A stretch of 64,000 bases of DNA. Source: Schmidtea polychroa. Lineage: Eukaryota. The DNA lies in NCBI GenBank assembly GCA_044892525.1, contig CM097885.1, forward strand, positions 19,532,001-19,596,000, read 5' to 3'. This document shows positions 19,949 to 63,207 of the stretch, piece after piece. Numbering within the stretch: position 1 is the first letter of the stretch; each line of letters begins with the position of its first letter. The position numbers were made by a program, and so were the translations under genes. The notes under the pieces are model-generated. The model did not search any database, was not told the origin of the DNA, and saw only the letters and a list, made by a program, of their open reading frames with translations.

Positions 19949-20686
19949 TGAATAAGTCCAATAACAATTATCAAAATTTTATTTCCCGCCTCTACAGGGC
20001 CGCGTGGATCAGTTTTGAATAATACCAGTTTGTCCATTTCAATGTCATGTCCAATGTCAGATTTTACTCGAGCTGCTTCCATTTGTGCACGATAAACTTG
20101 CGATCGACAATCAGGGATCATACCAATCATAACACCTCCAGTACTTTCAGTAATATTAAACGATCTCGTAGCTGAACTCGTCTCAATCATTTTATCGGGA
20201 ACTTTTCCTTGGAAAACAGTATAAATGAGATCGCCTTTCACAAAGTTAATATTTTGAAAAGATGTAAGACAGAATTTCTGATCACAACCTACATCACATC
20301 GCAAATTCATTTCGACCGCCATTCTTTGAATTTCATTCATCATAATCTAACCGATTTCAATTCCAAATACCTTCCAAAATCGCCGTTTAAACCACAATCA
20401 ATTTAAAAACAACTCCAGAAATCACAACAAAATTAAATCCAGTTTCTACAACAATTAATTTTAAACTACAAACCAAAATTTAGAACAATTCACCACCAAA
20501 TCAATGATTTCTACAAAAACTAAATCAAAATTATACTTACAAAATACCAAACCTACCAACTCTTCGCGTCTGTGTGCGCACACCAACCAGAATCGGTCTA
20601 ACCAGACCGCGCACACAGACGCGATAGAAAAAAGGCATGCAACGAACTGCCAGTCAGAGGCAATCCCCCTCTGACTGGTCGAAACA
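19949..20686 (-). repeat. 3' LTR of the BEL element (738 bp)
   Basis: Near-identical to 23681-24573 apart from two missing 78-bp units, one substitution and one 1-bp indel that I could see. Confidence 0.95.
19999..20268 (-). pseudogene. Proteasome alpha1 (PSMA6-like) fragment within the 3' LTR
   Basis: QGKVPDKMIETSSATRSFNITESTGGVMIGMIPDCRSQVYRAQMEAA...FKTDPRG aligns by eye to PSMA6 [47 protein letters not shown]...YKCDPAG. Confidence 0.85.
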
Positions 20687-20698
20687 TTTCCCCCCTCC
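20687..20698 (-). other. Polypurine tract
   Basis: GGAGGGGGGAAA on the minus strand immediately before the 3' LTR. Confidence 0.9.
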
Positions 20699-20955
20699 TT
20701 GATCCCTTCTAGCGGATCAACCACCCATTTACTTTAGGGGAACCTTTCTTTTTGCATATCTCCAATACCTCTCACACACCCATCTTTCTATTGTATAGGC
20801 CGCCGCACCACGCACCTTTTTCTCCTCCCACCATCGCCATACTCGGCCAAGCCCCTGTCACTGTTCATTCTGCTTAGGTTCAATATCTCCATTCTTCTTC
20901 CTTCATTCTTCGCCAATTCAATAGTCCCCACTTTTCCCTGTTGCATTTCATTTAA

Positions 20956-22155
20956 TTAAGGGGAACCAGGTGAATAGTCTTCAATGATATCATCTAAAGC
21001 AGACGTTGGTTGAGTGAATGTATTTTGTTCAGAATCTTTAGCTGTGTCGGATGTATGACAATTAACAATATCGACTCTAAGATCACTGTCATTGCTCTCA
21101 GAATCTGGCATAATTCGATCAGTTTCTAAATGATTTTCTGAGGAAGCAGAATCCGCTTGAATATTAACTACGTCTTCCATGTTTTGAAAATTATCTACTA
21201 CCAAAGAATTCGGTCTTTCGATAACATTAATGTCGACAACATCTGTGCCTAAATAACTATTATGATTTTCATTCTTGTCTGACACATCTACTTCAGTTTC
21301 ATCATATTTACTTTCAAAATTTTCTTCTTAATTGTGAGTTTTGACAATATTTTCTGATTCATCTGCTGTAACTTGGTCTCCTTTATCAAAATCTTTGTCT
21401 AATAGTTCAGTATTATTTTTTACAAATTCAGAATAATTATTCTCGTTCTCATTGACTCGATTTTGCTCTATTTCATCTTGATTTATAATATCGTTAGATT
21501 GTAAATTATCCCATTCATTGCTTTCACTATCTCCATCTTCGCTAGCATTTTTGTTTTCATGTGTTTCATCATTTTCATCACATTCTTTAATATAATCCAT
21601 TTCTTCAGAATTATCTACATCATGAATAATCATTTCTCCGTCATTTTCATCTTTATTATTTTCGATATCTGAATCCTTTTTTGAATCGGAAGGATTTATT
21701 ACATCTATGGAATCTATTTCGTTATTCTCAAGGAAATTTTGTGGATTACCGTCATCTTGAGTAATATGCTTTAATTCATCACAATCCTTTATTTTGTCAT
21801 AATTGTTAAATGGGTTTTGATTAAAATTAGATTCGTCAGTTCCTCCAAAATGGAATATTTGCCCATCTAAATGACTCTGAGCTCCTTGCTCCTCATTAGA
21901 TGTCTTACTAATGTCGAGTTTTGTGTCCTCAATTCCCCGCAATGCATGTAACTCGTCATTTAACATTTTCGTTACTGCAAAATAACTCCGAGCCAAATGC
22001 GAACCTCTTGGAGCTTGATTTCTTGCAATTGGTTTTCTCTCCATGAAGTTTGTGAACTTCTTCAATTTCCCCACATCCTTCCTACTCTCTGGAATTCTCT
22101 CCCCAAACAATATATTCAAGGCTTTTCGATGCCTATCGGCTTCTTGTTGATCCAA
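20956..22155 (-). pseudogene. Gag tail running into a D/E/N-rich coding segment that replaces pol
   Basis: ORFs 21328-22155 and 20956-21285 are in the same frame, separated by one TAA; no protease, RT or RNase H motifs. Confidence 0.7.
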
Positions 22156-23027
22156 TCGGCTAGAGTTTGTACATTTCCTTCTCTCCCCGAATCACAATGG
22201 CGTGACCACTGAATCAGCATGGTCTCTGGCAACTTCTTCAGCAGTTGATGATACAACATTCTGTTGTTCAACTCGCCTTCCCTCTTCTGTTCCTTGAAAT
22301 TCAGGATGAGGTTTCCCAGCAGCTCTTCAAACCGCTCTAGGTCCTCCAGTACGTTGAGCCTCACTGGAAAAAACCTCTGCACCGCGTCCAGCATCATTGA
22401 ATAGGATCTTTCTGGTCCCCCATACCTCTCATCCAGTAATTTCATCGCCGCCTCGAAAGCCTGCGAGCCATATCCAATATAGGCAATCAATTGCAACGGC
22501 TTCCCTTCCAAGTACTGTCTCAGGTACAAGTACTTTCTCTCACTCGGCTCATCTGTGTCCTCGATGCAGGCTCTCACAATTGCCCTCCATCCAGGATACT
22601 CCATTACCTTTCCATTAAATATCGGCAGCTGTAAGGGTTTCAATCCCATTATGAACTTCGGTTTTTCATTGGGCTCTTCATTCCTAAATGATTTCTCTGG
22701 GACCTTCCGCGACTCTACTCTAAAACTTTCTTCCTTCTGCGTGAGGACCAGATCACCGATTCTGCTAAAATCCGCTTCTATTCGTCTCAGATCTGCCTCA
22801 ATTTCCTTCGCTTCTTTCTCCCGTCCTAACTCCAGAGCATTATTCTTCAGCTTCTCAAATTCGTTCATGACTTCCTCATACTTGTCTTCGTATGCCTCCA
22901 TTCTCCTTTGTTCTTCCCCATGGTCCGATCCATCTCCTAAGGCCCGGTTACGTAGACGCCCTAACGAAATCTTCCACCCGGTTCGTCTTTTGTAACCGGC
23001 CTCGAACTCAGCATCTGATACTGGACT
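22116..23027 (-). pseudogene. gag: BEL/Pao Gag (DUF1759-like), frameshifted near 22145
   Basis: Coiled-coil N-terminus, [27 protein letters not shown] and LLDERYG motifs typical of BEL/Pao Gag. Confidence 0.88.
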
Positions 23028-23492
<465 letters not shown>

Positions 23493-23662
23493 CTAATAGG
23501 GTTAGGGAGGGCAGGCCTTAGGGGAAATGTTTCAAACAAATCAATACATGTCAATACATATAATATGATAAAAATACAATACATATTACATATATATATA
23601 ATACAATACAAATAAAAGACAAACAATATATGTAACATACCTTGTTCCGGCTGGCTAGCCGG

Positions 23663-23680
23663 AACCACGCTCTGCTACCA
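23663..23680 (-). other. Primer-binding site, complementary to initiator tRNA-Met 3' end
   Basis: TGGTAGCAGAGCGTGGTT directly after the 5' LTR; metazoan tRNAiMet ends ...CUCUGCUACCA. Confidence 0.85.
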
Positions 23681-24573
23681 TGAATAAGTCCAATAACAAT
23701 TATCAAAATTTTATTTCCCGCCTCTACAGGGCCGCGTGGATCAGTTTTGAATAATACCAGTTTGTCCATTTCAATGTCATGTCCAATGTCAGATTTTACT
23801 CGAGCTGCTTCCATTTGTGCACGATAAACTTGCGATCGACAATCAGGGATCTTGTCCATTCCAATGTCAGATTTTACTCGAGCTGCTTCCATTTGTGCAC
23901 GATAAACTTGCGATCGACAATCAGGGATCTTGTCCATTCCAATGTCAGATTTTAATCGAGCTGCTTCCATTTGTGCAAGATAAACTTGAGATCGACAATC
24001 AGGGATCATACCAATCATAACACCTCCAGTACTTTCAGTAATATTAAACGATCTCGTAGCTGAACTCGTCTCAATCATTTTATCGGGAACTTTTCCTTGG
24101 AAACCAGTATAAATGAGATCGCCTTTCACAAAGTTAATATTTTGAAAAGATGTAAGACAGAATTTCTGATCACAACCTACATCACATCGCAAATTCATTT
24201 CGACCGCCATTCTTTGAATTTCATTCATCATAATCTAACCGATTTCAATTCCAAATACCTTCCAAAATCGCCGTTTAAACCACAATCAATTTAAAAACAA
24301 CTCCAGAAATCACAACAAAATTAAATCCAGTTTCTACAACAATTAATTTTAAACTACAAACCAAAATTTAGAACAATTCACCACCAAATCAATGATTTCT
24401 ACAAAAACTAAATCAAAATTATACTTACAAAATACCAAACCTACCAACTCTTCGCGTCTGTGTGCGCACACCAACCAGAATCGGTCTAACCAGACCGCGC
24501 ACACAGACGCGATAGAAAAAAGGCATGCAACGAACTGCCAGTCAGAGGCAATCCCCCCTGACTGGTCGAAACA
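23681..24573 (-). repeat. 5' LTR of the BEL element (893 bp) with PSMA6-like ORF and a 3x78-bp repeat
   Basis: ORF 23551-24231 starts in the LTR, contains three IPDCRSQVYxAQMEAARxKSDIG units and reads through the PBS. Confidence 0.95.
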
Positions 24574-24587
24574 TTATTATTGTTTTA

Positions 24588-24774
24588 TAAGAACCTTTTA
24601 CCCAATTTTACCACTGATTTTTTTTCCATTGAATTTATTAAAAAGAGCTTGAAGACTGTATATCAGTAAATATATCGATGATTTTGATATATTACTGATT
24701 AATAGTGTTCAAGCTCTTTTTAATAAATTCAATGGGAAAAAAATCAGTGGTGAAATTGGAAAAAATTTCTTATA
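24588..24774. repeat. Foldback copy of the dispersed repeat family
   Basis: About 85-bp inverted arms around a short loop. Confidence 0.8.
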
Positions 24775-26307
24775 ATATTATTATTGTTATTGTTATTATT
24801 ATTATTTATTTCATATCATGTTTTAAACTTAATCCTATCCGGATGTGAATATAAGTTCGTATACTGGATTAATTTATTATATTTTAAAACATTCAATAGT
24901 TTTTACATATGTCAATAATTGACAATCATATATTTTGCAGATAAAAAAATTAATATATTGAAAACTTGACGAGCACACTCATTTTATTAAATATGCACAA
25001 TAATCACTAATAGAAGCAACTAGAACATCTTCTAAAATATTTTTTAAATCAGGTTCAAAAGATAACGTCATAATAACAAGTATTTATTTAATGAAATATT
25101 GGTTAATTTTCAAACAAATTTTCAGCCTTGAATAAATATTTTCAGGTTAATTTATTAAACTTTTCGATATTTAAAATGTATTTATTTAAAAATTATTTCC
25201 TATTAAAACATATTTAAAAAATTAGTTATATAAAATTTTTTCGTAATAAAATCTCTTTAATTTAAAATTTATTTTAAAACTTATTTAAATGTCCATTATT
25301 TTCATTTAAAATTATTTTAATAAATTATTGATATATTCAATTCTCAGCTGAAGACATCTTACAATCACAATTATTTATTAATATTATTTATTATTGTCTA
25401 TTTACTATAGAGAATAGAAAAACCGAATAAAAAGTCAATAAAAAAATTAACTATCTTGATTTGCGTGTATTTTATATTATGTGTGCTGTGTTTGTATGTA
25501 AAATTATTCTTCTGTCACTTTCTCAATTCGGAACATTAAATTTTCGCACACAGGTAAGTTTGTGTGTCCTATATTATAATTTTATCGATTTATTTAGATT
25601 ATAGAAACTTTTAACTTTCGGAATTAGGTGTAAAACCTCACTCGTCTATAGAAAATAAAAAATATCCCTTTATATTATTAGACAATGTTTAGTTTGAATG
25701 AAGATATTCTTAAAAAAGAGAATTTACACAATTTAATAATTACTTTTTAATATTGACCTATCAAAGATTATTTTTCCGTGTAAAAATTCATCATTTACCT
25801 AACGAAATGAGGAAATAAACTACATTTCAGTTTAGGTTCGGATTCTGTTCCATTAATGTTTCATTAATATTTGACTGGCTCTTGATAAATGCTGTACGGA
25901 AAATTTGTGATTATCCTTAAGAATTTGATTGATCTATTGCTATTTAATAATGAGAATTTATTAATATTCACTTTTTATTTTTATTATAGTTTCACTTATT
26001 TCAAACATAAAAAGAAATTTTACTTTTGATTAAATATATGATAAAGATCAAATATAATTTTAAAACTTCAATTATTTTTGTTTCTATTTCGTTATGATTC
26101 TAAAGAAAATTCAACTAAATTCCATTTATTATATTTTACGAAATATATAATCTCACTAATGAACTAGGCATAGCAGAATGAAAATTATTAGAACAAATGA
26201 ATAATTGAAATAACCTGATTTACATTAGGCTTATATGTTTTGAGTAGAAATATATTTTTCTTATATAATATCTTTTCCAATTTATTATAATGATGATAAT
26301 TTAATAT

Positions 26308-26338
26308 AATAATAATAATGATATTAATAATAATGATG

Positions 26339-26428
<90 letters not shown>

Positions 26429-26455
26429 GTAATAATATTAATAATAATAATAATA
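26308..26455. repeat. (AAT)n microsatellite
   Basis: Directly visible. Confidence 0.95.
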
Positions 26456-27687
26456 TTAAACAACTAAATTATAAGATAAATTTTTGTTATGTAAAATAAA
26501 ACTATATATTAAATTGAAAAGTTTTAGATTATCGGAAAGTCCTTTTTAATTTCTCAAAATATAGTTGTTTCGATTTTTAAATGCTTTTTGGTCTTCTTAT
26601 ATAAGTTCATTTTAAATTCATTACTTACGTGATTAACACTTAATTTATGCTGCTATCAATAAATCATCATTTAAAAATAAAAAAAAATAAAAATAAATTA
26701 TAATAAAAATAATAATAATAATAATATTAATAATATAAGAACTTTTTTTTCCAGTATCACCGTGGATTTCTTTTCCATTGACATTGTATTTATTAAAACG
26801 TTTGACTATGAATCAGTAAACTTTTATTTACTGATTCATAGTCAAATTTTTTAATAAATACAATAATAATAACAATAATAATAATAATAATGACAAAATA
26901 AATCTTCCTGCTTAATTTTTTGGCATCTCTCTTCGTGCAATTTATTGATAAATATCTACAGAAATTTCATGAATTTAATCCATATTTAATTGAAATATTC
27001 TAAATTATTCATTTTCTGAGAATATCTTTTTTTATAAAATTTTTATACAATTCAGTATGACCAGGAATAACCAGGATAAACCTTTTCATTGATTTCAAAA
27101 AGGCGTTCAATGAAAACAAATACTGCTTATTGAGTAACAATAAAGAAAGTCTAAAGAATATAAATTGATATTAGTTTTAAAAATGACCCCTTCGTCTTAA
27201 CACTAGGCTAGAGCCAGAATTAATGCACGTTGCAAATTCATTCTACAATTCAAAATTAAATATTTTATTGGTAACATAAAGACAAAACCATTTATAAACA
27301 AAACATGTTGAAGAATTTAATGGAAATGAAATTAGAGCTAAAAACTAAAAATTGAAAGCTTTAATGATTTGAATAAGTTTGTCCAAGTTATTTCTGGTCA
27401 TCTTCTATAACCAGTGATGAGATGAATGCAGCTTGATCTGAACTATACAAGCCGATTATTAATTATTTTATGAATATAAGATCCAACTGTTAAACCTATT
27501 CAAATTATGCAATAATATTCAATTGCCACAAAATGTAATAACTTATAAATAATTGTTATGTAATAGTACAAAGATTCTCTAAGGCTGCATTACTAATCCC
27601 TTACATAACAAACCATAAAAGTATTACTATATCACAATAATGGAACTTTTAAATCTTATATATATAATTGTGAATGTATGTATGTAT

Positions 27688-28358
27688 TGTTGCGTTAGCG
27701 CAAAACCAAAAAATTCATATATAAGAGAAAAGCATAAAAAATGGGTGATCAATAAAAGTGCAAGGTTAATTAAAATTTACTAAAAATCGAAAATCAATAT
27801 TGAATATCGGGTATGGTTGAATGGCAAATTGATAGACGAGTTCAGAAATTATAGTGAAAATTTAATAAGGTGTTCACAGGGAAAGTTAATACAAAATGTC
27901 AAATTAATTAAAATTAATTAATCGGTAATGGAAAACCCGAGCCAATGGGACATTCGAGCGCTAAAGAAAACCCACTGCCAGTGAGACCCGAGCTATAAGA
28001 TAAATAGAGGGAAAGTTTTAAGCCATAATCAAGGGTAAACAAATTAAAATAACCAAAAAACCCTCAAATATCGATTTAGGATTTTCGAGAAAAGAATTAA
28101 GCTCAATTTTCTAGATAATTGGCCTCTAATAAACAATATTTAAGGAGAGCTCAGAAGTGAACAAGCCGCCAGTTGGTCGAAGAGAAAAAAAGGAGAAAAG
28201 AGAAGCACTGAAAACAAGGAGAGGAAGGTGCAAATAGTGACAAAGTGTAATTGTCATTAAGATTGAAAAAAATTATTCTTTGTTGGGTTTGATTTATTTG
28301 GTTGAATAAGAACACAAGGAGTCAGAGAGAGGACCGACTTTTAAATAAAAACCCAACA
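27688..28358. mobile_element. Solo LTR, 4-bp TSD GTAT, nested in the Helitron
   Basis: tgttgcg ... aaaacccaaca; GTAT at 27684-27687 and 28359-28362; aatggaaaacccgagc motif shared with 5467-6867. Confidence 0.8.
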
Positions 28359-29280: not shown

Positions 29281-29351
29281 AACTTTGATTAATATCATCA
29301 TTTTAAATTATTATTATTTTGAGTTATTTTTAATTTTCACATGCTTATAAC

Positions 29352-29661: not shown

Positions 29662-29899
29662 CTTATAACATGTAATATATAGTAATAATATGTTTACGAT
29701 GTATAATTACTTTTGAAAATTCAAGTGCATTTAATAAAATATAGCTATTTACTATACGACTTATGTGCCCGAACAACGCCTGGTAGCCCAACTAGTCTTT
29801 ATATGTGTAATTTTTGTTTTTCGGACATTAATAGAAATTAAGATCACACTAAGTGCGCCGTTTTTAAAAAGCCTTTTGTGTCATCACTGATTATAACAA

Positions 29900-30330: not shown

Positions 30331-31691
30331 TTTCATTAAACATAATTAAATTACAAAATCTAAATTAAATATTAAAAAGATAAATTATTTGCAACATTTA
30401 AATTTTAATTAAAAGAAAATTTTAATTTTCTAAGAAATGATTTTTTTTAATTTTAAAATCTGTCGAATATTTATTTTACAAAACTATTTCTTCACAATTC
30501 AGACGGGTTTAAATTGAATGCTTTAAAAATGGAGTGGTTATGAACATGGACAAACTCTCAAAAAAAAGACAAATTTATTGACAAAATTATGCAAATAAGT
30601 GCAGATGCAATTGAAATGCACAAAGGTTGAGTGCAAAATTGCAAACTAATTATTTAATTATATTAACTTCGGGATATAACAAAATGTCATTTGCAAGAAT
30701 GGTTTTTTATAACCAGATTTTTTTATAGCTAGTTTCCTTAAAGTGGAACGTGCAGTACAGTACAAGTTCTGTTGGCATACACTAATTTTAATATATAAAG
30801 CTTTTTTATAATATCTTACTTTACTATATCTAGAAAATACTGTAATTAAATTTTGTTGGCTATTTTAATTACCTCAGTAAGAAAACAAAATCCCTGATCA
30901 TGCAAGCGTAATACCGGCGTATCGAGCGTTCGGATAATTAATTTAATTAAAAACTAATAGAAAGTGATTTAATTTCAAATATTGATACAATTGACAAATT
31001 CGCAGACACACATACATTTATATTTATTAAAGAGATTTTGAAGACTAGAAATCAGTAATATATCGATGCTTTTTGATACTCACGAATTTTCGGCACTGTC
31101 TTTTTCAAGTGAATTTTAACTTCACTTGAAAAAGGCAGTTCCGAAAATTCGCGAGTAAAAAGAAAAAGTAAAAAGCAACACTTAAATTGTTCTTGTTAAT
31201 TTTCAACATTTCGACCACAATTGTTAATACAAAATAGAATACGATTCTGCAGTTTTCTGAAAACATATTCGAGCTTATTTTAGGAACAGCCAGAAATAAC
31301 ATTAATAATTTTAGCTTGCAAACAATTATAAAATAAAATTTTTAAAGGCTAAAATACTAGATACATCAAGCATTCTGATCCCTTTTTTACAGATTTCATT
31401 TTAACAAGCATTTTAATTGCATTTAGACTTTGTAGATATCTAATGTACCATGTTTTTTTGCTTGTTGGAAAATAATTAAATTATCAACAACAAATAGTTT
31501 ATTTAACAATAATAATAATAATAATAGTAATGATATTACATTGAAGGCCAAAGACCAAATGTGAAGCAGTTCAGAGTATATTGCGTAATTCAATACAATG
31601 TGTTAGTTATTTCGCAATATACATTAATATTTAAGAGTGATCGCTCTGTGTTAATGTAAATAAATCTTTAGATGGAACCAATTGTTGTAAC

Positions 31692-31692
<1 letters not shown>

Positions 31693-31788
<96 letters not shown>
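31693..31788. repeat. (AAT)n microsatellite
   Basis: Directly visible. Confidence 0.95.
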
Positions 31789-32141
31789 TTTATTAATAAT
31801 TAATATTTTATAATTATTTCAAAACAGTACAAATTTGATATTTGCAAAATAACTAGCGAGATGCCTGAACCTAGAGACATTATTAGTTGTAAAAGAAAGA
31901 TATATTTTCTGCATTGAAATTTTCCATTTAATTCTGATACATATCACTCAGTACATCGTTTTCAGATAAACTAATACTGACAAATGTCTACTATTAGAGG
32001 CTGGAAATTTCTAATTATTGGCAATATTGGTCGTAATTTCAATTTCTACAGAATAATTAATATTGAAAGTATTCATAATATTGCAAAAATGCAGAATGTT
32101 TTATGAAAATTCTCTCGAAATCTAATATTTAAATACCCATT

Positions 32142-34205: not shown

Positions 34206-34240
34206 ATATATACATATATAATTGTTACTATTTTAGAAAT

Positions 34241-40374: not shown

Positions 40375-40565
40375 ATAAGAACTTTTTTCAATTTTCACCA
40401 ATGATTTTTTTTCCATTGAAATTGTATTTATTAAAAAGCTTGACTATGAATTAGTAAAGATCTCGATGTTATTTTACATCTTTTCTAATTCATAGCTACG
40501 TTTCTTAATAAATACAATGTCAATTGAAAAGAAATCATTGGTAAAAATTGAAAAAAAGTTCTTAT
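40375..40565. repeat. Foldback copy of the dispersed repeat family
   Basis: ataagaactttttt... arm and its reverse complement. Confidence 0.8.
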
Positions 40566-40868: not shown

Positions 40869-42946
40869 AAAGTTTTTATTTAATATTTTAAATTTCAAAT
40901 TAATAAAAAATTTACAAAATCGACGTATCTAAATTTTTTCAATAATTTCAATATTGTTACTTTTAATTTATTTTGATTATTGTTTTAATGAAAAAAAAAA
41001 ATAATTGTTTCAATATTTAATATAGGTAAAAGAAAAAATTGTAAATATTATTTGATTTCATATCTATTCTGTAAAAATTCTAATTTTTTCACTGTTTCAA
41101 AATAAAATGAAGAGCATGATAACAATGATTAAAGCTGATATGAATATTTATCTTTAGAATTCAATTTCCCTCTGTTTTTGACAAGCTAAAATTTCATATT
41201 ATTCGGCGTGAAATAACAGTAAAATTCAACTGACTGCAAAAAAAATCTGTTTTTTGGTTTGATATATTATTTCCCAAAAAAAAACAAAATAAAAACTACT
41301 AGTGACTGCATTGGGAAATATCCTACAGCAAATTATTAGCTAAGATCATTATTTTTTAATTTTTTAAAATATTATATTTCATGAATTTTATAATAAATTA
41401 TTCTGATAAATTTATTTTGATTTTAATTTTCTTAATTTATCTTTTAATCATCATCATCATTATTTTTATTATTATTTTAAATCTCAATGAGTAAATTCTA
41501 TTTTTTAATTATCATATATGAGAGTTTTTAATGGAATACAATCGACAAGTTGTCTGCTTTCAAAATGTATTATTTTTTTGCAAATTTATAATATAAAATT
41601 TATGTTTAAATTAAATATTTATATAAGAATTTTTTTTAATTTATTAAGCAGTTATTCTAATTTAATTTTTAATTAATTTAATATATTTAATTATTGGCGC
41701 TTTTTTTCATTTTTAAACATATAGTATTATATTTAGAGATTTCCATGATAAAGCATAGAATTAAATATAACAATTAGAAATTAGATGAATATGTGTTGAT
41801 CAAATAAATTTATTATATTTTTTATATTTAAAATAATTTTTATAAAATAAAGATTTTTATTATTTTATTTTTAAATCAAATTTTTGTTTAATTAAAAATA
41901 TTTAACAAATTCTGAAAATATTAAGTTTTGAATACAAAATTAATACAAAATAACCTTTGTACAAAACTTTAAAAGATTACGTATGATTTGCAAAAAAATC
42001 AAAATTTCCTAAATCTCGTATAAAAAAATAATTTTCAATAAAAAAATATTTTCAAATTAAATGTAAATTATTGTATAATAAATGAAAAAACAACGTTTTT
42101 AAAATTTGGGACATTTAACAAGAAATGTAATAATTTAGGAAACCGTATCATTTTAAACAATTTCGATAGTAAATTGTAAATTTTGTTTATTTAAAACCAA
42201 TATCAAAATAACTTTAGCCAATGTTCTTAATTATTAAAACATTTTAGATAATTATTTCATGTGAACATTTTTAAATTTGAACTTTTTGCGATTGTATTTT
42301 TTTTAACTTATGCATTTTTTAAGTTTATGTTTGTAACACAATAATATAGTTTCATTTTACACAAAATTTATATTGATGACATGTTAAACTATGGCAATTA
42401 GTTTTGCATTTTTCTCCTTGAATTGTTTGGTTCGTATATATCAAATGACCTTTGCTCTTTATGTCTTCACAATAGCGTATTTTTGTAGCTTTTTCATAAG
42501 TAGTTCTTTTTAATCTTTGGATAATAGTTTTGAAGACGCTCCATAAGAAATTGGTGAGAATTTATTTTCCAAGCCACACTCTGGGAATAAATGTTTCTGT
42601 TAACATCATCTTCAAAAAATAGAAAAGTTTGACTTTGTCAAGTGCAAATATTTATCTTAGAAATCTTTATCCAACATAAAATTTGTAAGTAAAGATTTTT
42701 ATGTAAATTTTCAAGAACAAAATTTTCAAGTCATTTTATCAATTGAAATTTTTTGACATTTAAAAATATGTTTTATCTTGAGTCGAGAGCAGAAATGTCC
42801 TTAGATTTCCTTGTTACAAATAATGATTACTTCATAATGTCCATTCTTGGTTGAGTAATTTTGGTTTATAAAAATATATTTCTAAAATTTTAATTTAAAT
42901 ATTGGTGATAAATTTAAATTAATAATAAAAATTTGGATGAATTTAA

Positions 42947-43102
<156 letters not shown>

Positions 43103-54818: not shown

Positions 54819-55957
54819 TGTAGTGAGCCGTTACACGGCCTTAACAATATCTATATACTTATTATACTATATTATATTATATTATATTATATATAAATGC
54901 GCGGTCACCAACGAATAAGGACCAAACAGAACACAAGTATAGTCAATCAAAAGTCGTGCGATCAGCTAATACTTCTACTTATCAATCAGGCTCTATTAAT
55001 CAATCTCAGACGAGTAAAGCAAATTCGATGCCATGTTATCATTATCAAGATAAACTGTATTCGGCTCCCAATAGTTTTAGTGTTGGCTCTCATAGACCAA
55101 CACCCTCATCCATTACAATTCGCGAAAGACGGAACAAATCCTAACAATAATATGAACCCGAAAAGATCTTTTTATCAAACCACCACACGTCTTTACAAAT
55201 TCTGATCAAGGTGATAATGCAAAAAAGGATCAGAACGGCAAAGGATATACATTTCCTCAAATATTGTATGCGAATGAGAATGGTCAAAATGGTTCATGGA
55301 CAAATCGGCAGGCTGTAAAATCTTTAGAAATAATCGGACTATATGAAATTATTATTTTTAGTTAACATTTTGTAAATGAGAAATGCCTGTTGAATATGTT
55401 TATCTGGTCTGATTATATTTTCATTTTTTATATAGTTTCTATAATATATTTTTGTTTTACTTAAATAAGTGAAAATGGTAATTTAAATAAAAATTGTGTA
55501 AATCGAATTTATTATATAAATTGTCTGACTTTAAATTGAATTTAATTACTTTTCTTCTCAAATGATTTTAAAATTATTTAGATTACTGATATTGTTAAAT
55601 TTCATAACCTCGAACAAGGAGGAAGTATGTAAGGATATTAATTCATCTGATGATAGGTATTCACAAATCGTGTTATTGAATCACCTTCCATTTGGTCTTG
55701 TTAATAAAACTAATATCATACAAAAGATAATCATGCTAGATGAGTGGGACGAATGTATTAAATATTGTTGTGACTACAAACAATGTGACGCGGTTTTGTT
55801 CAATACTACCCATTGTAAAATAATTCATTGCGAAAATCCATCATTATGTCAGCCAGAAAAAAAGAAAACTGAAGAATTATTTTGCGTTTTCTCGAATAAT
55901 GGTCAAAGAAATGATTCTATTGCCAAATCACCAGAAAGGACTACGCCAACCACAACA
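54819..55957 (+). repeat. 5' LTR (1139 bp)
   Basis: Matches 62085-63207 except for about three substitutions and a 16-bp indel. Confidence 0.97.
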
Positions 55958-58549
55958 TTGGTGTCAGAAGTGCCAGAACAATGTTCAAGATTTGAACATT
56001 TAGAAACTTATTTAGCGGCTAATATCATTGCTAAATCCAGATTACAGGAAATACAATCTATGTTAGTTTCTCATAAACGAACAGTGGAATTACGTCAAAA
56101 TATGTTCCATATGCTTTCCAAAATATTTACTGAATTAAAACTTTCATCAAAATTTAATCCTATATCCCATGATATTGATAGGCTGATAGATCATTTGATA
56201 ATTGCTCATTCCTGTTGTTTGTCATCAAATCGAGAAGAGTATATCAAATTAATTCAGACAATTCCAGATCGTGATTCTTTGGATCCCGTAGTCGTTCTAT
56301 GTGATTCCATTTAGAGCCCTGCAAATATCACAGATAATAATCATATTCCAAATGGTCAATTTCAAATTTCTGACCCGATAAATAAATCGTCTTTCAAATT
56401 TATCAGTAAAAGTATTCAATTACAATCTGAATCATCGGATACTAAATCCGAATTTTCCCTATTCAGTGCTTTCAATAGCTCAGCTGGTAATGATATTACT
56501 GAATTCCACAGTACACTGAATTCCACATCTCCCCTGTTACGGCTTTCAGATCAGAAATCATTTATGAACAGTTTGAATTCAGTTGGTTCGTCGAATTCTC
56601 TGCTGGAAAGTTTCTGCCAGTTAAATTCTCAAAACCACGCCGCAATCAAGAATAACAACAATAATAATCAGTCATACCATCACAACATCAATCAACAGGC
56701 AAACAACAACGGTGTGCTTAACTACGGTCAGTATCAGGATCGAAACGAAATGGATATAAATCGCATATTTGGCTCGGAGAAACTGAATTCACATTACGAT
56801 CAGAAATATAAAGATACAGCCGATATAGATTTTGATTCGATTAATGTTTCCCGGCAAGCATTGGCTGAGATGATTGCCGTTGAAAATCGTAAAAAAATGA
56901 CTCCGATCAATAATTATATACCAAATAACAAATTGCTAACGAGTGAGGTCTTATACACAGCCCCACAACGCATCATGCTTCGACCAAATCCAAATGAATT
57001 CTTAATGCAACAGAATAATGATTTTTTCACATTAAACTCTCGTGCACCGGGACAGCCATTTATTCACGATAATAAACCATCTCCCAGCGAATCGAGACTC
57101 AATCAAGCAATGCCCGTGTCAGCACCGCCAGGTACCTTAGATCGATTACCTCTAAATTATATTATTATATTATTAAATTATACTATATTATTATTGATTT
57201 ATATTATTATTGATATCATATATAAAATTATAATAAATTATTTAAATAAGCATCAGCCCACACGAGAGGGTAGCGCCGCACCGGGGCCCAAAAAGTTCCA
57301 AATATTACTAGAAAACCCTGGAACAAATAAGACACAAACCGTTTCAGTTGACACAGACACTACAATTAGAGGTCTTTCTAAAAATTACAGCATATTGACT
57401 AATCACAAATGCCGTTTTCTCTTGTCGTATAACGGCAACATTATTTCCGACAGTCGTACCTTGGGCGACTATGGAGTGACACCATACAGCGTCATTCATT
57501 GTTTGTTGCCATTTTTTGGCGGTTCCTCCGATTCGGAGAATGACTCAGGCAGCAACCCCAAACAGGCAAAACATAAACGTAGGTCCAACAACCAGCGATC
57601 AACGTACTTATGTCAATATTTTTTGGATGAGAATAACTCTCCACTTACTTGGCTGATAGCTACCGAACTAGCACTCGAGGGAATCGAGGTAACCAGTTCA
57701 CGAGACAAATACTGTCGCATCTTGCCGTTGATTCCGCCGACGATATTATGTAAACTTTCGTCCGTGATCCTTCGCACTTCGCCTACTAGCGTAAAAAACC
57801 CATATGAAGAATTGCGTACGGCAATCCTCGATATTTTTAAGGAACCTACAGCTGCCGTCTTCACTAAATACTTTAAGATGCAAACTTTGGGCAGCAGGAA
57901 ACCATCACAGTTCTTGCAACACGCCATGGCGGAACTAACGCAAATACATCCGGAGGCTGCGGCGGATCAAAAACTCTTGAGGCAATTTTTTCTGTCCGCT
58001 TTACCGCCACACGCACAACAAATTTTAGCGCTTTCGTCAACAGCAGACGTGGTAGAGCTAGCAAAGATGGCCGACAAGATTAACGAAGTCGTGCCACTTG
58101 GTCCGCAACCAACTTGCTCTGTGCAGTTAAGTAGCAGCACTAACCCCGAAATTTTACCTTCTTCTTCTTCTTCTTTGAAACCTTCGACCGAAGAAGCCTT
58201 ACTTTGCGCTATTACAGGCCTCACTAAACGCATCAGCGAGCTTGAGAATAGCATGTCCACCAGGCGGACAAATGACGACAGGCAATATGCCCAAAAATCA
58301 CACTTTGTGCAAAATACTCGTCAACGTTCACCTTCCCCTGCAACCAGGAACCTGTGCCGTTTCCATTTTAAGTTTCGTAACAAGGCACGGTTCTGCCATC
58401 TAGGTTGCAATTGGCGAGATAAAGCACCATCCTGTCAGATACTTGACAAGTGCATATACCACGACAGGTTCGGAGATAAAGCCTTAAAATGCTTCGAAGG
58501 CTGCTCCAATTACACAAAACCTAAAGCAAACAATCAAAAAAACTTATAA
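55562..58549 (+). CDS. gag: Extended Gag polyprotein frame: signal peptide-MANEC-linker-[TAG]-N/Q-rich region-hydrophobic segment-UBL-Gag
   Basis: ORFs 55562-56314 and 56564-58549 are in the same frame and 56315-56563 is stop-free, so the only interruption is TAG at 56312-56314. Gag motifs NPYEELR, LGSRKPSQFL and two CHCC knuckles. Confidence 0.8.
55959..55972 (+). other. Primer-binding site (tRNA-Leu type)
   Basis: TGGTGTCAGAAGTG one base after the 5' LTR. Confidence 0.85.
57296..57523 (+). other. Ubiquitin-like domain, 76 aa, ending FFGG
   Basis: FQILLE...KTQTVSVDTDTTI...LSYNGNIISDSRTLGDYGVTPYSVIHCLLPFFGG, compared with ubiquitin [34 protein letters not shown]. Confidence 0.9.
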
Positions 58550-58582
58550 TGCCACCACTTCTAGCGGCAGAGGTGGGAGGCA
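58537..58582 (+). promoter_or_regulatory. -1 programmed ribosomal frameshift signal (gag to pol)
   Basis: A AAA AAC heptamer at 58537-58543, then a hairpin tgcc-a-ccacttct...agaggtgg-ga-ggca starting 6 nt downstream; pol is in the -1 frame. Confidence 0.8.
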
Positions 58583-61500
58583 AAATTTCATCAAAATCAG
58601 ATTTATTTTTAATAGAAGCAGAGTCAAACGCTTTTAATATATTGTCGTCTCCTTCCAACAGACTAAAATTCCTTGTCGACACTGGTTCCAGCTTGTCGAT
58701 CTTACCTAAAGAGTACCTTCCAGACCTCAACACTGTCGATATTTCTTTGAAGGCCGCAAACGGTAGTGTTGTTGAGACTTTAGGTTCAAAGACAATTGCT
58801 TTCTCGTTGCCATTTCTGTCCGACCAATTATTTGAGTGGAAATTTTATATAGCAGAGGTTATTATCCCCATATTAGGATCTGATTTTTTAAGCGCTAACG
58901 AACTACTCGTAGATTGCCATGGACGCACTTTAAGGATAAATAACCAATTAAACTGCAGCACTATTCCCTCAAACATCTTTGAAGATCCACAGCGGATAGG
59001 AACGGACGATATAAATACTACTCCGTCGAAAACGGTTATAACAATCGAACACCCAAAAATAGCCTTAGATATTATTAATAGGTGTTTTAACACGCCAATA
59101 AGTGACGTTTCGAAGCCGCTTTACTGCCACGTGATCGACACAACTTCATCTTTACCAGTTAGATGCAAAATTAGACCACTGTCGAATGAAAAACTCGAAT
59201 TTGTACGTTCCGAGTTCACTAACCTCTTACATGAGGGTACCATTCGGAGATCTAAATCTCCATGGTCATCGCCATTGCACCTGGTCCCAAAAAAAGATGG
59301 CACTTTCCGTCCGTGTGGCAACTATCGAAACCTTAATGCTATTACGGTACATGATTCCTATAGCATGCCGCTTGTTAGTGATATCCTTCACCGTCTTTCA
59401 AAGGCAAAGATTTTCTCCACAATCGACCTCGTGAAGGCGTACCATCAGATACCCGTGCGAGAGTCTGACATAGAAAAAACAGCCGTAATAACTCCGATCG
59501 GACTTTTCGAGTACGTGCATATGCCTATTTGGCCTTCGTAATTCTGCACAGACCTTTCAAAGGTATATTGATCAAGTCTTAATGGACCTGCCTTTCGCAG
59601 TTCCTTACATAGACGACATTTTAATCGGATCACCTGATTTAGAGACGCATATAACCCATCTGACAAGAACTTTAACAGCACTTCAGCAATACAACCTTAA
59701 GGTAAACGTTGATAAGTGTACCTTCTTCCAACACGAGACTCGTTTTCTGGGACATTTAATTTCCGGAGATGGAATCCGACCTCCTCCGGATAGACTAGAT
59801 ACCATAGCCAAATTCCCACTTCCAAAAACAGTTTCACAACTGAGAAGTTTTTTGGGAACGATAAACTATTGTCATCGTTTTATTCCAGGGGTTTCTGACA
59901 TTTTGTCACCTCTTTCAGGTCTTGTTTCAAAACCAAAAAAGTCTTTAGTGTCATGGAGCGATACCACACTCAGTGCATTTGAAAACGCTAAGTCGGCACT
60001 TTCGAAAATTCAAACACTCCATTTTCCCAATGCTGATTTACCTTGGAGTCGGACCACTGATGCATCAAACGTTGCTATTGGTGCAGTATTACACCAATTA
60101 CATAATGACATTTCTGAACTCTTAGAGTTTTTCTCAAAGAAACTTTCTTCCGCACAACGGAAATATTCGGCTTTCGACCGAGAACTCTTAGGCATATATC
60201 TGTCAATCAAACATTTCAAGCACTTGCTTGAAGGTCGTCCTTTTGTCATCTACACTGACCACAAACCGCTAACTTATCTTTTTGGAATGAAAGACCCATC
60301 TCCACGACAACAGAGGCAAATCAGTTATATTTCAGAATTTTCTTGCGAAATACGCCACATTGCCGGCAAAGAAAACGTTATTGCAGACTGTCTTTCCCGC
60401 AGTACCAACGCTATATTGCACGATCCGATTTTTCCAGTACAGTGCCTCCGCGACAATCCACCTTCGGCAAAAGATCTAGCTGCTTTTGGCGATAAGCTTG
60501 AAATCGTGGACGGAGTACACTTTGACTCGTCTTTATCAGGTGTTTTAAGACCGATTTTGCACGATTCCTTACGGAAATTAGCTTTCCACTCCATTCACGA
60601 CTTACATCATCCAGGTTCGTCGGCTACCTTCAACCTATTGCATTCACATGTGGTTTGGCCAGCAATGAGGCACTATATTAAATTGTGGGTGAGTCAGTGC
60701 ATCGGTTGTCAACAACACAAGATCACTAGACACACTAAGCCACAGATGATTCACTATCCGACCGGAAATAGGTTCGAAATTCTTCACATCGACCTGGTCG
60801 GCCCCTTGCCTTCTGATCGTGGTTTTTCTTACTTATTAACCATGATTGACCGGAAAACGCGTTGGTTTGAGGTTATACCTCTAAAAAGCATTTCTGCTGA
60901 AATTGTAGCAAATTCAATTTTGCAACATTGGATTTCTAGATACGGTGTTCCAAAATCAATAATCACAGACAGGGGATCTCAGTTTGAATCCCAGCTATTT
61001 CAACAACTAACTGAAAAGCTCGGTATACAACACCTCCGTTCAACTGCTTACCATCCTCAGACAAACGGCATGATCGAAAGATTTCACCGTACTTTGAAGA
61101 CTTCTCTTGGAATACTTTCATCGAGACTTAATTGGACTAAAGCTTTACCTTTTGTCCTTCTTGGTTGGCGTAACACACCCTCCAGGACTACCGGAACTAC
61201 ACCGGCACAGTTACTTTTCGGTTCTTCAACATCGTTACCTAACGAATTAGTTGATTTCGATAACGCTCCTACCTTTGAGGAATTAGATATGGCTAGAGAT
61301 CATTTTCTTTCGATCGATAGCAACCCACAGTTTTCGTATGCTTCCTCATATACACCGTACGTCCCAAAGTCCTTCAAGGACGCAACTCACGTTTATCTTC
61401 GTAATATTACGGATTCAGGTCTCAAACCGAGATATTCGGGGCCTTACAAATTGATCGACATTAAGGATAACAATGCTCACATCGTTATTAACGGTGTTAC

Positions 61501-61915
61501 CCAAAATATAAATTTGTGCCGACTTAAACCTGCTTTCATGATTTCTGATGACGTGGACGAAAACAAACTTCACTCTGATTTAGAGAAAGTCTCAGTCGAA
61601 CCCATTCCAACTACGTCGAACGAAAACCCTTCAGTAGAACCTGCCACAGACTCAAACGAAATCGCGCGTACCTTGATCACAAACTACCAACGCGATATAA
61701 AGTTAGCTACAGAGAATACACATCCAGCAACAACAAATCCACTAAATCTTCGCTCAATTGTTTCGAAACCCGACAAGCAGCAAACCGCGAAAAATGTGAA
61801 AAATAGTGATAAGATTTGGGTGCGCCAAATTGGTGAAGACATTTCCAAACCTCCAAGACTTGCCAGAGTCTATTCCAATGAAAATTTGACACATCTGATG
61901 CTGAAATTCACTTAA
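58549..61915 (+). pseudogene. pol: Pol (protease, RT, RNase H, integrase) with a 1-bp insertion at ~59527
   Basis: LVDTGS, IDLVKAYHQI, MP(a)FGLRN, YIDD, TDAS, HHCC, HIDLVGP, TDRGSQF, MIERFH and GPY motifs. Confidence 0.95.
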
Positions 61916-62084
61916 CTTTATTCCATGTGATCAATTAATTCATCAATCGCCGATTTCCTTTTTAGACACTATCCACCTTTGATAAATTGTCACTACTCTT
62001 CGACTTACATCTTGTTTCTAGTAGATCTTTCATCAATCTCTATTCTTGAGTCCCTGTGCGCTCCGCGACTTCCCGTGGGGCTGA

Positions 62085-63207
62085 TGTAGTGAGCCGTTAC
62101 ACGGCCTTAACAATATCTATATACCTATTATACTATATTATATTATATTATATTATATATAAATGCGCGGTCACCAACGAATAAGGACCAAACAGAACAC
62201 AAGTATAGTCAATCAAAAGTCGTGCGATCAGCTAATACTTCTACTTATCAATCAGGCTCTATTAATCAATCTCAGACGAGTAAAGCAAATTCGATGCCAT
62301 GTTATCATTATCAAGATAAACTGTATTCGGCTCCCAATAGTTTTAGTGTTGGCTCTCATAGACCAACACCCTCATCCATTACAATTCGCGAAAGACGGAA
62401 CAAATCCTAACAATAATATGAACCCGAAAAGATCTTTTTATCAAACCACCACACGTCTTTACAAATTCTGATCAAGGTGATAATGCAAAAAAGGATCAGA
62501 ACGGCAAAGGATATACATTTCCTCAAATATTGTATGCGAATGAGAATGGTCAAAATGGTTCATGGACAAATCGGCAGGCTGTAAAATCTTTAGAAATAAT
62601 CGGACTATATGAAATTATTATTTTTAGTTAACATTTTGTAAATGAGAAATGCCTGTTGAATATGTTTACCTGGTCTGATTATATTTTCATTTTTTATATA
62701 GTTTCTATAATATATTTTTGTTTTACTTAAATAAGTGAAAATGGTAATTTAAATAAAAATTGTGTAAATCGAATTTATTATATAAATTGTCTGACTTTAA
62801 ATTGAATTTAATTGATTTTAAAATTATTTAAATTACTGATATTGTTAAATTTCATAACCTCGAACAAGGAGGAAGTATGTAAGGATATTAATTCATCTGA
62901 TGATAGGTATTCACAAATCGTGTTATTGAATCACCTTCCATTTGGTCTTGTTAATAAAACTAATATCATACAAAAGATAATCATGCTAGATGAGTGGGAC
63001 GAATGTATTAAATATTGTTGTGACTACAAACAATGTGACGCGGTTTTGTTCAATACTACCCATTGTAAAATAATTCATTGCGAAAATCCATCATTATGTC
63101 AGCCAGAAAAAAAGAAAACTGAAGAATTATTTTGCGTTTTCTCGAATAATGGTCAAAGAAATGATTCTATTGCCAAATCACCAGAAAGGACTACGCCAAC
63201 CACAACA
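62085..63207 (+). repeat. 3' LTR (1123 bp)
   Basis: Preceded by gtggggctga (weak PPT), followed by TSD ATATC. Confidence 0.97.

What the first reader, a model, noticed from the sequence alone, without database searches (positions are those of the whole stretch)
19949..63207. Convergent cargo-ubiquitin-Gag architecture in two unrelated LTR retrotransposon superfamilies
Seen: in both the BEL/Pao element (19949-24573) and the Gypsy element (54819-63207) an ORF begins inside the 5' LTR, encodes host-like sequence and reads across the PBS. An AT-rich hydrophobic stretch follows, then a 76-codon ubiquitin fold ending GG fused in frame to Gag, with Ser next in both (GG|SPVSD, GG|SSDSE). The UBLs differ greatly (near-canonical ubiquitin versus a divergent UBL), suggesting independent captures. 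Established: host DUBs cleave linear ubiquitin fusions after GG, and pestiviruses use captured ubiquitin as a polyprotein processing signal. Inference: ubiquitin is a host-cleaved linker that frees Gag and lets these elements carry an exchangeable N-terminal cargo. Both copies carry disabling mutations, and novelty is unverified.
Basis: partly seen in the sequence, partly recalled or inferred. Interest (0 to 1): 0.93.

Follow-up and report, generated by a model that had tools for sequence, protein, structure and literature searches.

The report
Ubiquitin-fused Gag with swappable leaders
Two unrelated jumping-gene families in this animal genome start translation inside their terminal repeat, read through varied scraps of host genes, and place a ubiquitin unit ending in Gly-Gly directly before their capsid protein, probably so that host enzymes cut the capsid protein free.

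Summary
Both families encode one frame. It starts in the 5' LTR, crosses the primer-binding site and an AT-rich hydrophobic stretch, then reads ubiquitin-GG and Gag.

The Gypsy family is young and autonomous. LTR pairs are 99.1-100% identical in 17 of 20 chosen copies. 78 of 79 full-length genomic matches have no stop across linker, UBL and Gag N-part. Its LTR-encoded N-terminus comes in at least six unrelated versions.

BEL-type copies carry fragments of a dual-specificity phosphatase, a CCT chaperonin plus a Ras-family (Rab-like) GTPase, a DEAD-box helicase or a proteasome subunit. Then come two ubiquitins and Gag.

Among Gag relatives from other sources, 20 of 20 with a long N-terminus keep GG 17-51 residues before the Gag motif. 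None has Pro after GG.

Selection is strong on Gag and on the Gag-adjacent ubiquitin. It is weak on the leader.

Best reading (confidence 0.62): ubiquitin is a host-DUB-cleaved insulator that frees Gag from an obligatorily translated leader. The leader can then collect host mRNA fragments, most of them probably junk. Cleavage itself is untested.

Eight literature searches on this question found no description.

The parts
23681..24573 (-). BEL-type 5' LTR (893 bp, TG..CA). It holds a 78-nt unit three times; the 3' LTR holds it once.
23681..24231 (-). Leader ORF inside the LTR, ATG at 24231. Proteasome-subunit-like host fragment.
   Evidence: same frame in both LTRs; PF00227, 23.7 bits
23661..23680 (-). 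PBS-like sequence starting TGG, directly after the LTR. Translated as HGSRAWF in all copies examined.
23534..23640 (-). AT-rich hydrophobic linker. Begins with GT after AAG. It varies in length and sequence between copies and is closed by a stop only in this copy.
23256..23533 (-). Remnant ending IRGG, then ubiquitin 1. A frame shift lies in the first codons of Ub1 in this copy.
23028..23255 (-). Ubiquitin 2. The N-half is host-like and the C-half divergent. TAA at 23154-23156 in this copy. Ends GG at 23033-23028.
22116..23027 (-). Gag of BEL/Pao type (DUF1759), starting with Ser directly after GG.
   Evidence: 37.6 bits; relatives are PF05380+RVT_1+PF03564 polyproteins
20956..22191 (-). Acidic low-complexity frames where Pol would be. 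No knuckles, protease, RT or integrase in this copy.
19949..20686 (-). BEL-type 3' LTR (738 bp), preceded by a purine-rich tract.
54819..55957 (+). Gypsy 5' LTR (1139 bp). The first ~340 nt and last ~40 nt are shared with the other LTR types; the middle is type-specific.
55562..55957 (+). Leader ORF start inside the LTR. Hydrophobic N-terminus plus a KIAA0319_N/MANSC-like module.
55959..55975 (+). PBS-like sequence, translated as LVSEV. The same peptide is seen in distant relatives.
55958..57151 (+). Translated leader with no family match. TAG at 56312-56314 breaks it in this copy only.
57152..57250 (+). AT-rich hydrophobic stretch, open in frame.
57296..57523 (+). Divergent ubiquitin-like domain of 76 codons, ending GG at 57518-57523.
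   Evidence: PF00240, 33.2 bits; AF2 pLDDT 83-95; ubiquitin/ISG15/NEDD8, TM 0.76-0.89 per target for single-domain chains
57524..58549 (+). Gag (DUF7041-like, Cys/His-rich C-terminus), starting with Ser after GG.
58525..61915 (+). Pol (PR, RT, RNase H, integrase) in the -1 frame. Split by a frame shift near 59492-59541 in this copy.
62085..63207 (+). Gypsy 3' LTR carrying the same module.

Best explanation
Both families translate Gag as the tail of one long protein. The protein starts at the first ATG of the type-specific part of the 5' LTR. It then runs through the end of the LTR, the primer-binding site and an AT-rich leader.

A ubiquitin fold ending in Gly-Gly sits immediately before Gag. 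Host deubiquitinases normally cut linear ubiquitin fusions after GG. They would therefore release Gag with a small N-terminal residue and discard everything upstream.

Because the upstream part is cut off, it only has to stay open. So it tolerates, and over time collects, in-frame pieces of host mRNAs. These were probably picked up by template switching during reverse transcription.

Shown: the architecture, its openness, the swapping of modules, GG conservation and the selection pattern. Inferred: cleavage by host enzymes, the capture mechanism, and that the modules are mostly passengers.
For: 1. One frame in sister copies.
- Gypsy ORF1 is 906-1035 aa, followed by an intact 1129-aa pol in the -1 frame.
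- BEL copies have one frame, up to 1395 aa.
- Unselected tables: 78 of 79 full-length Gypsy rows have no stop over linker, UBL and Gag N-part. 34 of the first 59 near-full-length BEL rows have none over the Ub2 C-half and Gag.

2. Young and active. 17 of 20 Gypsy copies have LTR pairs at 99.1-100% identity. One BEL copy has 99.3%.

3. Swappable modules inside the LTR.
- Six Gypsy N-termini sit on LTRs that share ~340 nt at the 5' end. Four of the six types also share the last ~40 nt; types b and c did not align there.
- BEL modules are DSPc (77.7 bits), Cpn60_TCP1 (140.2) plus Ras (26.5), DEAD (41.1) and Proteasome (41.6-66).
- The module is present in both LTRs.

4. GG kept.
- Invariant in 13 of 13 aligned sequences.
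- Among the 150 best representative hits, 23 carry the Gag N-terminal motif and 20 of these have at least 110 aa upstream. All 20 have GG 17-51 aa before the motif, and none has Pro next.
- 99 of 100 listed BEL junctions keep the two Gly codons, out of 124 matches with 0 in the control.
- Two of these relatives, P0023 and P0013, match this genome at only 43% and 38% identity at best, so they come from other sources.

5. A real ubiquitin fold followed by a disordered stretch. pLDDT is 83-95 over residues 10-80 and below 50 over residues 85-114. Foldseek matches ISG15, ubiquitin and NEDD8 at rmsd 1.1-2.7.

6. Selection (pN/pS).
- Gypsy: Gag 0.26, UBL 0.55, leader 0.74 (18 copies).
- BEL: Gag 0.20, Ub2 0.24-0.43, upstream Ub1 1.15 (9 copies).

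7. Relatives carry other host pieces upstream of the UBL: histone H2A, CNOT1 plus Rrp44, cohesin SA and a 5'-nucleotidase.
Against: - No cleavage has been observed.
- Two of 10 BEL loci have the junction changed to GR or EG.
- Copies L021-L050 were picked for long open frames, so their openness is partly by choice.
- pN/pS among copies of one genome mixes lineage and post-insertion changes. The pairs are not independent, and the UBL has few sites.
- BEL Ub2 begins with Met, so internal initiation there is not excluded for that family.
- The start of transcription is not mapped.
- The AT-rich stretch is conserved as a feature but remains unexplained.
- The sources of the relatives are unnamed, so the taxonomic spread is unknown.
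Confidence: 0.62

Rival explanations
1. The UBL is a permanent N-terminal domain of Gag. It is not cleaved. It would work as an interaction module, for example for the proteasome, ESCRT or ubiquitin receptors, or as a degradation signal that tunes Gag level.
For: Many UBL domains in cellular proteins are never cleaved (recalled). The Gypsy UBL is highly divergent: about 26-28% identity to ubiquitin and ISG15 chains in the structural alignments. Papers listed (titles and abstract starts seen only) report that ubiquitin fused to retroviral Gag can stand in for late domains.
Against: The C-terminal GG, usually preceded by an R/K-L-x pattern, is kept in 20 of 20 divergent relatives while the rest of the fold drifts. 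Uncleaved UBL domains usually lack it (recalled). The residue after GG is never Pro. The segment after GG is predicted disordered. The unrelated junk upstream would stay attached to Gag.
Confidence: 0.15
2. The long upstream frame is not translated. Gag starts at an internal start codon, and the open leader only reflects the youth of the copies.
For: BEL Ub2 starts with Met. LTR identities of 99-100% leave little time for decay. Leader pN/pS is near neutral at 0.74.
Against: Zero stops in frame against 16-66 in the other frames over 0.7-2.1 kb. Host fragments of different origin are all in frame with Gag in both families. The Gypsy UBL has no Met at its start. Copies differing by 2-4% still all keep the frame. 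In each Gypsy LTR type, the first ATG of the open frame lies at or just past the end of the LTR segment that type shares with others.
Confidence: 0.1
3. The N-terminal modules are working payloads. The element would express host-derived proteins or dominant-negative fragments to its own benefit, with ubiquitin as the release device.
For: Modules come from proteostasis and translation factors: proteasome, CCT, a DEAD-box helicase and a phosphatase. One phosphatase copy keeps the active-site signature. The window's Gypsy module has a hydrophobic start and a MANSC-like domain.
Against: All are partial domains. 3 of 5 full-length phosphatase-bearing copies lack the stretch with the active-site signature. 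Modules are mosaics shared piecemeal between copies. Gypsy leader pN/pS is 0.74. Five of six Gypsy modules match no family.
Confidence: 0.12
4. The AT-rich stretch is an intron. The mature Gag mRNA would join the LTR exon to the ubiquitin exon.
For: In all 9 BEL copies with a linker, and in the window copy, the linker begins with GT right after AAG. A pyrimidine-rich ...TTAG lies before the IRGG remnant.
Against: Splicing at those sites would leave the ubiquitin frame out of phase in intact copies (worked out). The linker is kept open in frame in every intact copy. Candidate sites in the Gypsy linker would also shift the frame.
Confidence: 0.08

Closest known systems
Ubiquitin insertions in cytopathogenic pestiviruses (BVDV)
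   Same: Host ubiquitin coding sequence was captured by recombination and sits directly upstream of the viral protein it accompanies, with one or two copies and repeated independent acquisitions (PMC13517609, passages read). That host enzymes cleave after it is recalled, not read here.
   Different: In pestiviruses these are sporadic variants of single strains. Here the ubiquitin is a fixed, selected part of whole retrotransposon lineages, sits before Gag, and comes with a variable translated leader inside the LTR.
Cellular linear ubiquitin fusions (polyubiquitin, ubiquitin-ribosomal protein genes)
   Same: Ubiquitin-GG fused head to tail to the next protein and released by deubiquitinases (recalled, not tested here).
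   Different: Those are host genes with ubiquitin at the very N-terminus. Here hundreds of residues of unrelated sequence precede it.
2A-like peptides at the N-terminus of non-LTR retrotransposon ORF1 (L1Tc, Ingi and others)
   Same: A retroelement uses a separation device near the start of its first ORF (PMC3708506, search listing and start of abstract only).
   Different: 2A works by ribosome skipping and needs no host enzyme. I did not scan these ORFs for a 2A motif.
LTR retrotransposons with captured host gene fragments (plants), and the Burro giant Gypsy elements of planarians
   Same: Host-derived domains inside LTR elements (PMC3726574, listing only; PMC6431247, passages read).
   Different: In the passages read, the Burro extra domains lie within the giant ORF1 polyprotein after an N-terminal Gag, or in accessory ORFs. 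No ubiquitin-Gag junction and no modules inside the LTR are mentioned there.
Ty1 of yeast (recalled, no call)
   Same: Its gag frame starts in the 5' LTR and the PBS lies inside the coding sequence.
   Different: It has no ubiquitin and no variable host modules.

Membership tests
Ty3/Gypsy LTR retrotransposon | LTR pair with TG..CA ends and a short target duplication | tested here: met
   (ATATC on both flanks)
Ty3/Gypsy LTR retrotransposon | Pol order PR-RT-RNase H-integrase | tested here: met
   weak RVP, 18.0 bits below the 20.7 cut-off; RVT_1; RT_RNaseH; Integrase_H2C2; rve; intact 1129-aa pol in sister copies
BEL/Pao LTR retrotransposon | Gag of the DUF1759 type | tested here: met
   37.6 bits, cut-off 25.4; 37-38% identical relatives carry PF05380, RVT_1 and PF03564
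BEL/Pao LTR retrotransposon | Own Pol with Pao peptidase, RT and integrase | tested here: not met
   The copies examined hold only knuckles, a weak Asp-protease match (17.8 bits) and an acidic region. This is a non-autonomous derivative; no partner was found.
Ubiquitin family (beta-grasp) | Sequence match above the curated cut-off | tested here: met
   127.8 bits for the BEL stretch holding Ub1 and the Ub2 N-half; Gypsy 33.2 bits (cut-off 25.4)
Ubiquitin family (beta-grasp) | Fold | tested here: met
   (Gypsy UBL only; TM 0.76-0.89 per target for single-domain ubiquitin, ISG15 and NEDD8 chains)
Cleavable linear ubiquitin fusion | C-terminal GG directly joined to the next protein, next residue not Pro | tested here: met
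Cleavable linear ubiquitin fusion | Cleavage after GG by a deubiquitinase | not testable with these tools
   needs protein work
2A-type separation | NPGP-type motif before the released protein | not tested
   no scan was run

The most novel reading that the evidence does not exclude
A whole clade of Gypsy elements, found in several organisms, and separately a BEL lineage have handed the maturation of the Gag N-terminus to host deubiquitinases. This turns the R-U5-leader region into a translated capture zone. It keeps sampling host mRNAs and copies them, in frame and in both LTRs, to hundreds of loci. That would be a natural fusion-protein and exon-shuffling engine. Some of its modules, such as fragments of proteasome, chaperonin or helicase, may act on the host.
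Probability: 0.2. Interest if true: 0.9.

Novelty: new variant of a known kind. Interest (0 to 1): 0.8.

Why it matters
If cleavage is confirmed, this would be the first retrotransposon lineage I can find that relies on a host deubiquitinase to make its capsid protein.

It would also explain how an element can translate straight through its own cis-acting leader.

It shows a route by which host coding sequence enters the LTR itself and is then amplified twice per copy. That matters for gene duplication, chimeric proteins and genome annotation: these frames look like host genes.

The ubiquitin-GG-Gag junction is a simple marker for finding such elements elsewhere.

Tried and rejected
- Intron reading of the AT-rich linker: set aside on frame arithmetic.
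- RNA evidence: the look-up of sequencing runs listed no holder on record as RNA.
- Laying four runs, all Logan contigs, two only guessed to be RNA: no GT..AG joint over the linker. Contigs cannot show absence, transcript starts or expression.
- The same call showed contigs that match only the phosphatase module (600-1126 of L041) and run on unlike on both sides.
- It also showed very deep contigs over 1399-1730 with a loose end at 1702. That is the boundary between the host-like and divergent halves of Ub2. I read these as the host parent genes, but this is inference.
- Word-index protein search: nothing for Gypsy UBL-Gag at similar length and one Gag-only hit for BEL.
- Cluster look-up gave no names or taxa.
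- ESM Atlas gave only DUF7041 Gag clusters without a UBL, at scores of 0.85 or lower.
- Earlier findings of this scan: nothing relevant.
- Search for an autonomous BEL partner with the post-Gag part of the ORF found only the same family.
- Parent gene of the MANSC-like module: not resolved. All 25 matches look LTR-borne.
- Literature: eight searches on this question found no natural ubiquitin-Gag fusion in an LTR retrotransposon. A ninth search looked for the 2A analogue. Repbase reports and subscription journals were not searchable.
Full report
**What is in the window**

The window is AT-rich (GC 0.18-0.42 by 2-kb bins). It lies in a 781-Mb assembly with four very large contigs.

Two LTR elements stand at the given coordinates.

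*BEL-type element.* It is on the minus strand at 19949-24573. Its LTRs are 893 and 738 bp with TG..CA ends. The flanks share TTATT, and a purine-rich tract lies before the 3' LTR.

*Gypsy element.* It is on the plus strand at 54819-63207. Its LTRs are about 1.13 kb and 98.3% identical, with ATATC on both flanks.

- The BEL element has a remnant ending IRGG, then two ubiquitin units, not one.
- In the Gypsy element the AT-rich stretch lies about 1.2 kb after the PBS, behind a roughly 400-codon leader.
- The BEL element has no Pol at all.

Pfam supports each named piece.
- BEL: Proteasome 23.7 bits; ubiquitin 127.8 bits (stretch holding Ub1 and the first half of Ub2) and 39.9 bits (second half of Ub2, at the head of the Gag frame); DUF1759 37.6 bits.
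- Gypsy: KIAA0319_N 31.4 bits; ubiquitin 33.2 bits; DUF7041 24.1 bits (below its 28-bit cut-off); and RVT_1, RT_RNaseH, Integrase_H2C2 and rve above cut-off, with a weak RVP match (18.0 bits, cut-off 20.7).

Both window copies are broken.
- BEL: a frame shift early in Ub1, a TAA in Ub2, a further frame shift after Gag, and an internal deletion.
- Gypsy: a TAG in the leader and a frame shift inside RT.

**Sister copies of the Gypsy family**

A 270-aa query (last 2 residues before the UBL, UBL, first part of Gag) found 144 matches in the genome. This is a lower bound: 142 of 1358 candidates were scored.
- 79 rows cover the whole query at 95-100% identity.
- 78 of these 79 have no stop.

I fetched 20 whole copies, chosen for long open frames. 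Their openness is therefore partly by choice.
- 17 of 20 have recognisable LTR pairs at 99.1-100% identity.
- Intact copies have ORF1 of 906-1035 aa and a 1129-aa pol in the -1 frame, overlapping by 22 nt.
- All 20, and the window copy, read GGSSDSE at the junction.
- In 18 of 20, ORF1 runs unbroken from inside the 5' LTR across the PBS (read as LVSEV or LVSEM) to the gag stop. L024 and L025 are broken upstream.

The part of ORF1 encoded by the LTR comes in at least six unrelated versions:
- type a, 3 copies
- type b, 5 copies
- type c, 5 copies
- type d, 1 copy
- type f, 4 copies
- type e, the window copy

LTR lengths run from 747 to 1238 bp.

The LTR types share the first ~340-350 nt, up to 570 or 700 nt between some types. 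Four of the six types (a, d, e, f) also share the last ~40 nt; types b and c did not align there, and their frames end differently (...AKLPGTT against ...PERTTPTTT). The types differ in between. In each type the first ATG of the open frame lies at or just past the end of the LTR segment that type shares with others.

Only the window's version matches a Pfam family.

**Sister copies of the BEL family**

A 345-aa query (second half of Ub2 plus Gag) found 119 matches, again a lower bound. 34 of the first 59 near-full-length rows have no stop.

Ten loci were fetched, chosen for long frames or high identity. Nine hold, in one frame:
1. a variable N-terminus
2. the peptide HGSRAWF..., which is the LTR end plus PBS
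3. an AT-rich hydrophobic linker of 22-41 residues (126 in L042, which carries an insertion), different between copies
4. ETFPLG...IRGG
5. Ub1
6. Ub2
7. GG|S and Gag

The tenth locus belongs to a tandem array. It has a deletion that removes Ub1 and most of Ub2.

The N-termini are host fragments:
- DSPc phosphatase, 77.7 bits
- Cpn60_TCP1, 140.2 bits, plus Ras, 26.5 bits
- Proteasome, 41.6 and 66 bits
- in one copy, a DEAD-box piece (41.1 bits) inserted inside the linker itself

One fully fetched copy is 5.26 kb.
- Its LTRs are 846 bp and 99.3% identical.
- It has a single 1395-aa frame.
- The phosphatase module is in both LTRs.
- After Gag it holds two knuckles, a weak protease match and an acidic region, but no RT or integrase.

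The family is therefore non-autonomous. No partner was found.

The BEL/Pao label rests on Gag alone. Its 37-38% identical relatives are Pao-peptidase/RT/DUF1759 polyproteins. They list no ubiquitin.

The chaperonin module has a 97% identical match inside a 450-aa open frame elsewhere in the genome. This is probably the parent gene.

**Is ubiquitin-GG a constrained feature?**

*Fold.* The Gypsy UBL was modelled with 12 homologues. It folds as a beta-grasp with pLDDT 83-95 over residues 10-80. A disordered stretch follows directly after GG. Foldseek finds ISG15, ubiquitin and NEDD8 at rmsd 1.1-2.7. TM-score per target is 0.76-0.89 for single-domain chains.

*Relatives in the representative library.* A full HMMER scan of 1.84 billion representatives found 2620 relatives of UBL-Gag at E <= 0.001.
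- Among the best 150, 23 carry the Gag N-terminal motif under my pattern.
- 20 of those 23 have at least 110 residues upstream.
- All 20 have GG 17-51 residues before the motif, usually after an R/K-L-x pattern.
- None is followed by Pro.
- GG is invariant in 13 of 13 aligned sequences.

Their ubiquitin scores range from 81.5 bits (near-canonical) to no detectable match.

Several carry other host pieces upstream: histone H2A, CNOT1 plus Rrp44, cohesin SA and a 5'-nucleotidase. Four show the PBS peptide VSEV.

Two of them, tested against this genome, match at no more than 43% and 38% identity. They therefore come from elsewhere. Their sources are unnamed.

*BEL junction.* A 48-base junction pattern has 124 matches at up to 3 mismatches, with 0 in the control. 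99 of the 100 listed keep both Gly codons. Most variation around them is synonymous. Among the ten fetched loci, 8 keep GG. One reads GR and one EG.

**Selection**

| Family (copies, call) | Segment | pN/pS |
|---|---|---|
| Gypsy (18 copies) | leader | 0.74 |
| Gypsy | linker (few sites) | 2.68 |
| Gypsy | UBL | 0.55 |
| Gypsy | Gag | 0.26 |
| BEL (9 copies) | Ub1 | 1.15 |
| BEL | Ub2 N-half | 0.24 |
| BEL | Ub2 C-half | 0.43 |
| BEL | Gag | 0.20 |

For Gypsy, L024, L025 and the window copy were left out because their frame is broken. For BEL, L050 and the window copy were left out.

So Gag and the ubiquitin next to it are constrained. The upstream ubiquitin and the leader are not, yet the leader stays open. 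These figures pool non-independent pairs and should be read as a pattern, not a test.

**How it most likely works**

Translation starts in the LTR. It cannot avoid the LTR end, the PBS and the leader. Ubiquitin then lets host deubiquitinases remove all of that from Gag.

This explains four things:
- why only openness is kept upstream
- why modules of any origin are tolerated in frame
- why GG and a non-Pro next residue are kept
- why only the Gag-proximal ubiquitin is constrained

The modules look like passengers.
- All are partial domains.
- 3 of 5 full-length phosphatase-bearing copies (L046, L048, L049) lack the stretch with the active-site signature. L041 and the copy upstream in L042 keep it, and the L042 version is altered. 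The signature itself is recalled.
- Modules are mosaics shared piecemeal between copies.

Sense orientation of all modules would follow from copying of RNA templates. Capture by template switching during reverse transcription is my inference.

In the contig data, very deep contigs match the BEL element only from inside Ub1 to residue 34 of Ub2 and then run on unlike. This fits a later recombination with host polyubiquitin RNA that refreshed half of an older, divergent UBL and added a unit. This too is inference.

The AT-rich hydrophobic tract recurs even in relatives that appear G+C-richer, judged from their amino-acid make-up. I cannot explain it. A cis-acting RNA element translated by necessity is my guess.

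**Comparison and novelty**

The nearest known case is ubiquitin capture by cytopathogenic pestiviruses (PMC13517609, passages read). Functional analogues are cellular ubiquitin fusions (recalled) and 2A-like peptides in non-LTR elements (PMC3708506, listing and abstract start). A gag frame starting in the LTR is known from yeast Ty1 (recalled).

Three features look new:
- a fixed, selected ubiquitin-GG-Gag junction across a divergent Gypsy clade and in a BEL lineage
- coding host modules inside the LTR
- their rapid exchange

Eight full-text searches on this question found no description. Repbase and subscription journals were out of reach.

'Convergent' is likely, since relatives of both Gag types lack ubiquitin. 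Module transfer between the two families is not excluded.

Noticed in passing
window 16860-17440, 26166-26522, 31556-31858, 42793-43032: Arrays of 9-15-nt periodic repeats that match each other at 60-79% across four places in the window.
   Followed up: no
window 10415-10516, 26769-26870, 40423-40524: A 102-nt direct repeat in three copies, at 62-83% identity to the reference copy.
   Followed up: no
window 23681-24573 versus 19949-20686: The 5' LTR of the BEL copy holds a 78-nt coding unit three times and the 3' LTR holds it once, so the two LTRs differ by 155 bp.
   Followed up: partly
L024 (G000:C2:97399735-97409035): One Gypsy copy has Gag and Pol in a single 1747-aa frame, in place of the usual -1 overlap.
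   Followed up: no
L050 and G000:C2:174924043-175005704: Four BEL copies with the same ubiquitin deletion lie 26.6-27.4 kb apart. This looks like a segmental tandem array, not separate insertions.
   Followed up: no
L042:654-1319: A DEAD-box helicase fragment is inserted in frame inside the AT-rich linker itself. Host pieces can therefore enter downstream of the PBS as well.
   Followed up: partly
L026-L029, LTR-encoded N-terminus: The type f Gypsy module contains a motif that reminded me of cytosolic endo-N-acetylglucosaminidases. This is recall only; Pfam found nothing.
   Followed up: partly
L022 (G000:C2:71429843-71439143): A Gypsy copy whose second LTR copy lies only 3.8 kb after the first, with a 1122-aa ORF1. 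It looks like an internally deleted, pol-less derivative.
   Followed up: no
P0005, P0008, P0013: Even in relatives that appear G+C-richer, judged from their amino-acid make-up, a run of Phe, Ile, Val and Leu lies between the PBS and the UBL. The T-rich tract is therefore a conserved feature of unknown role.
   Followed up: no
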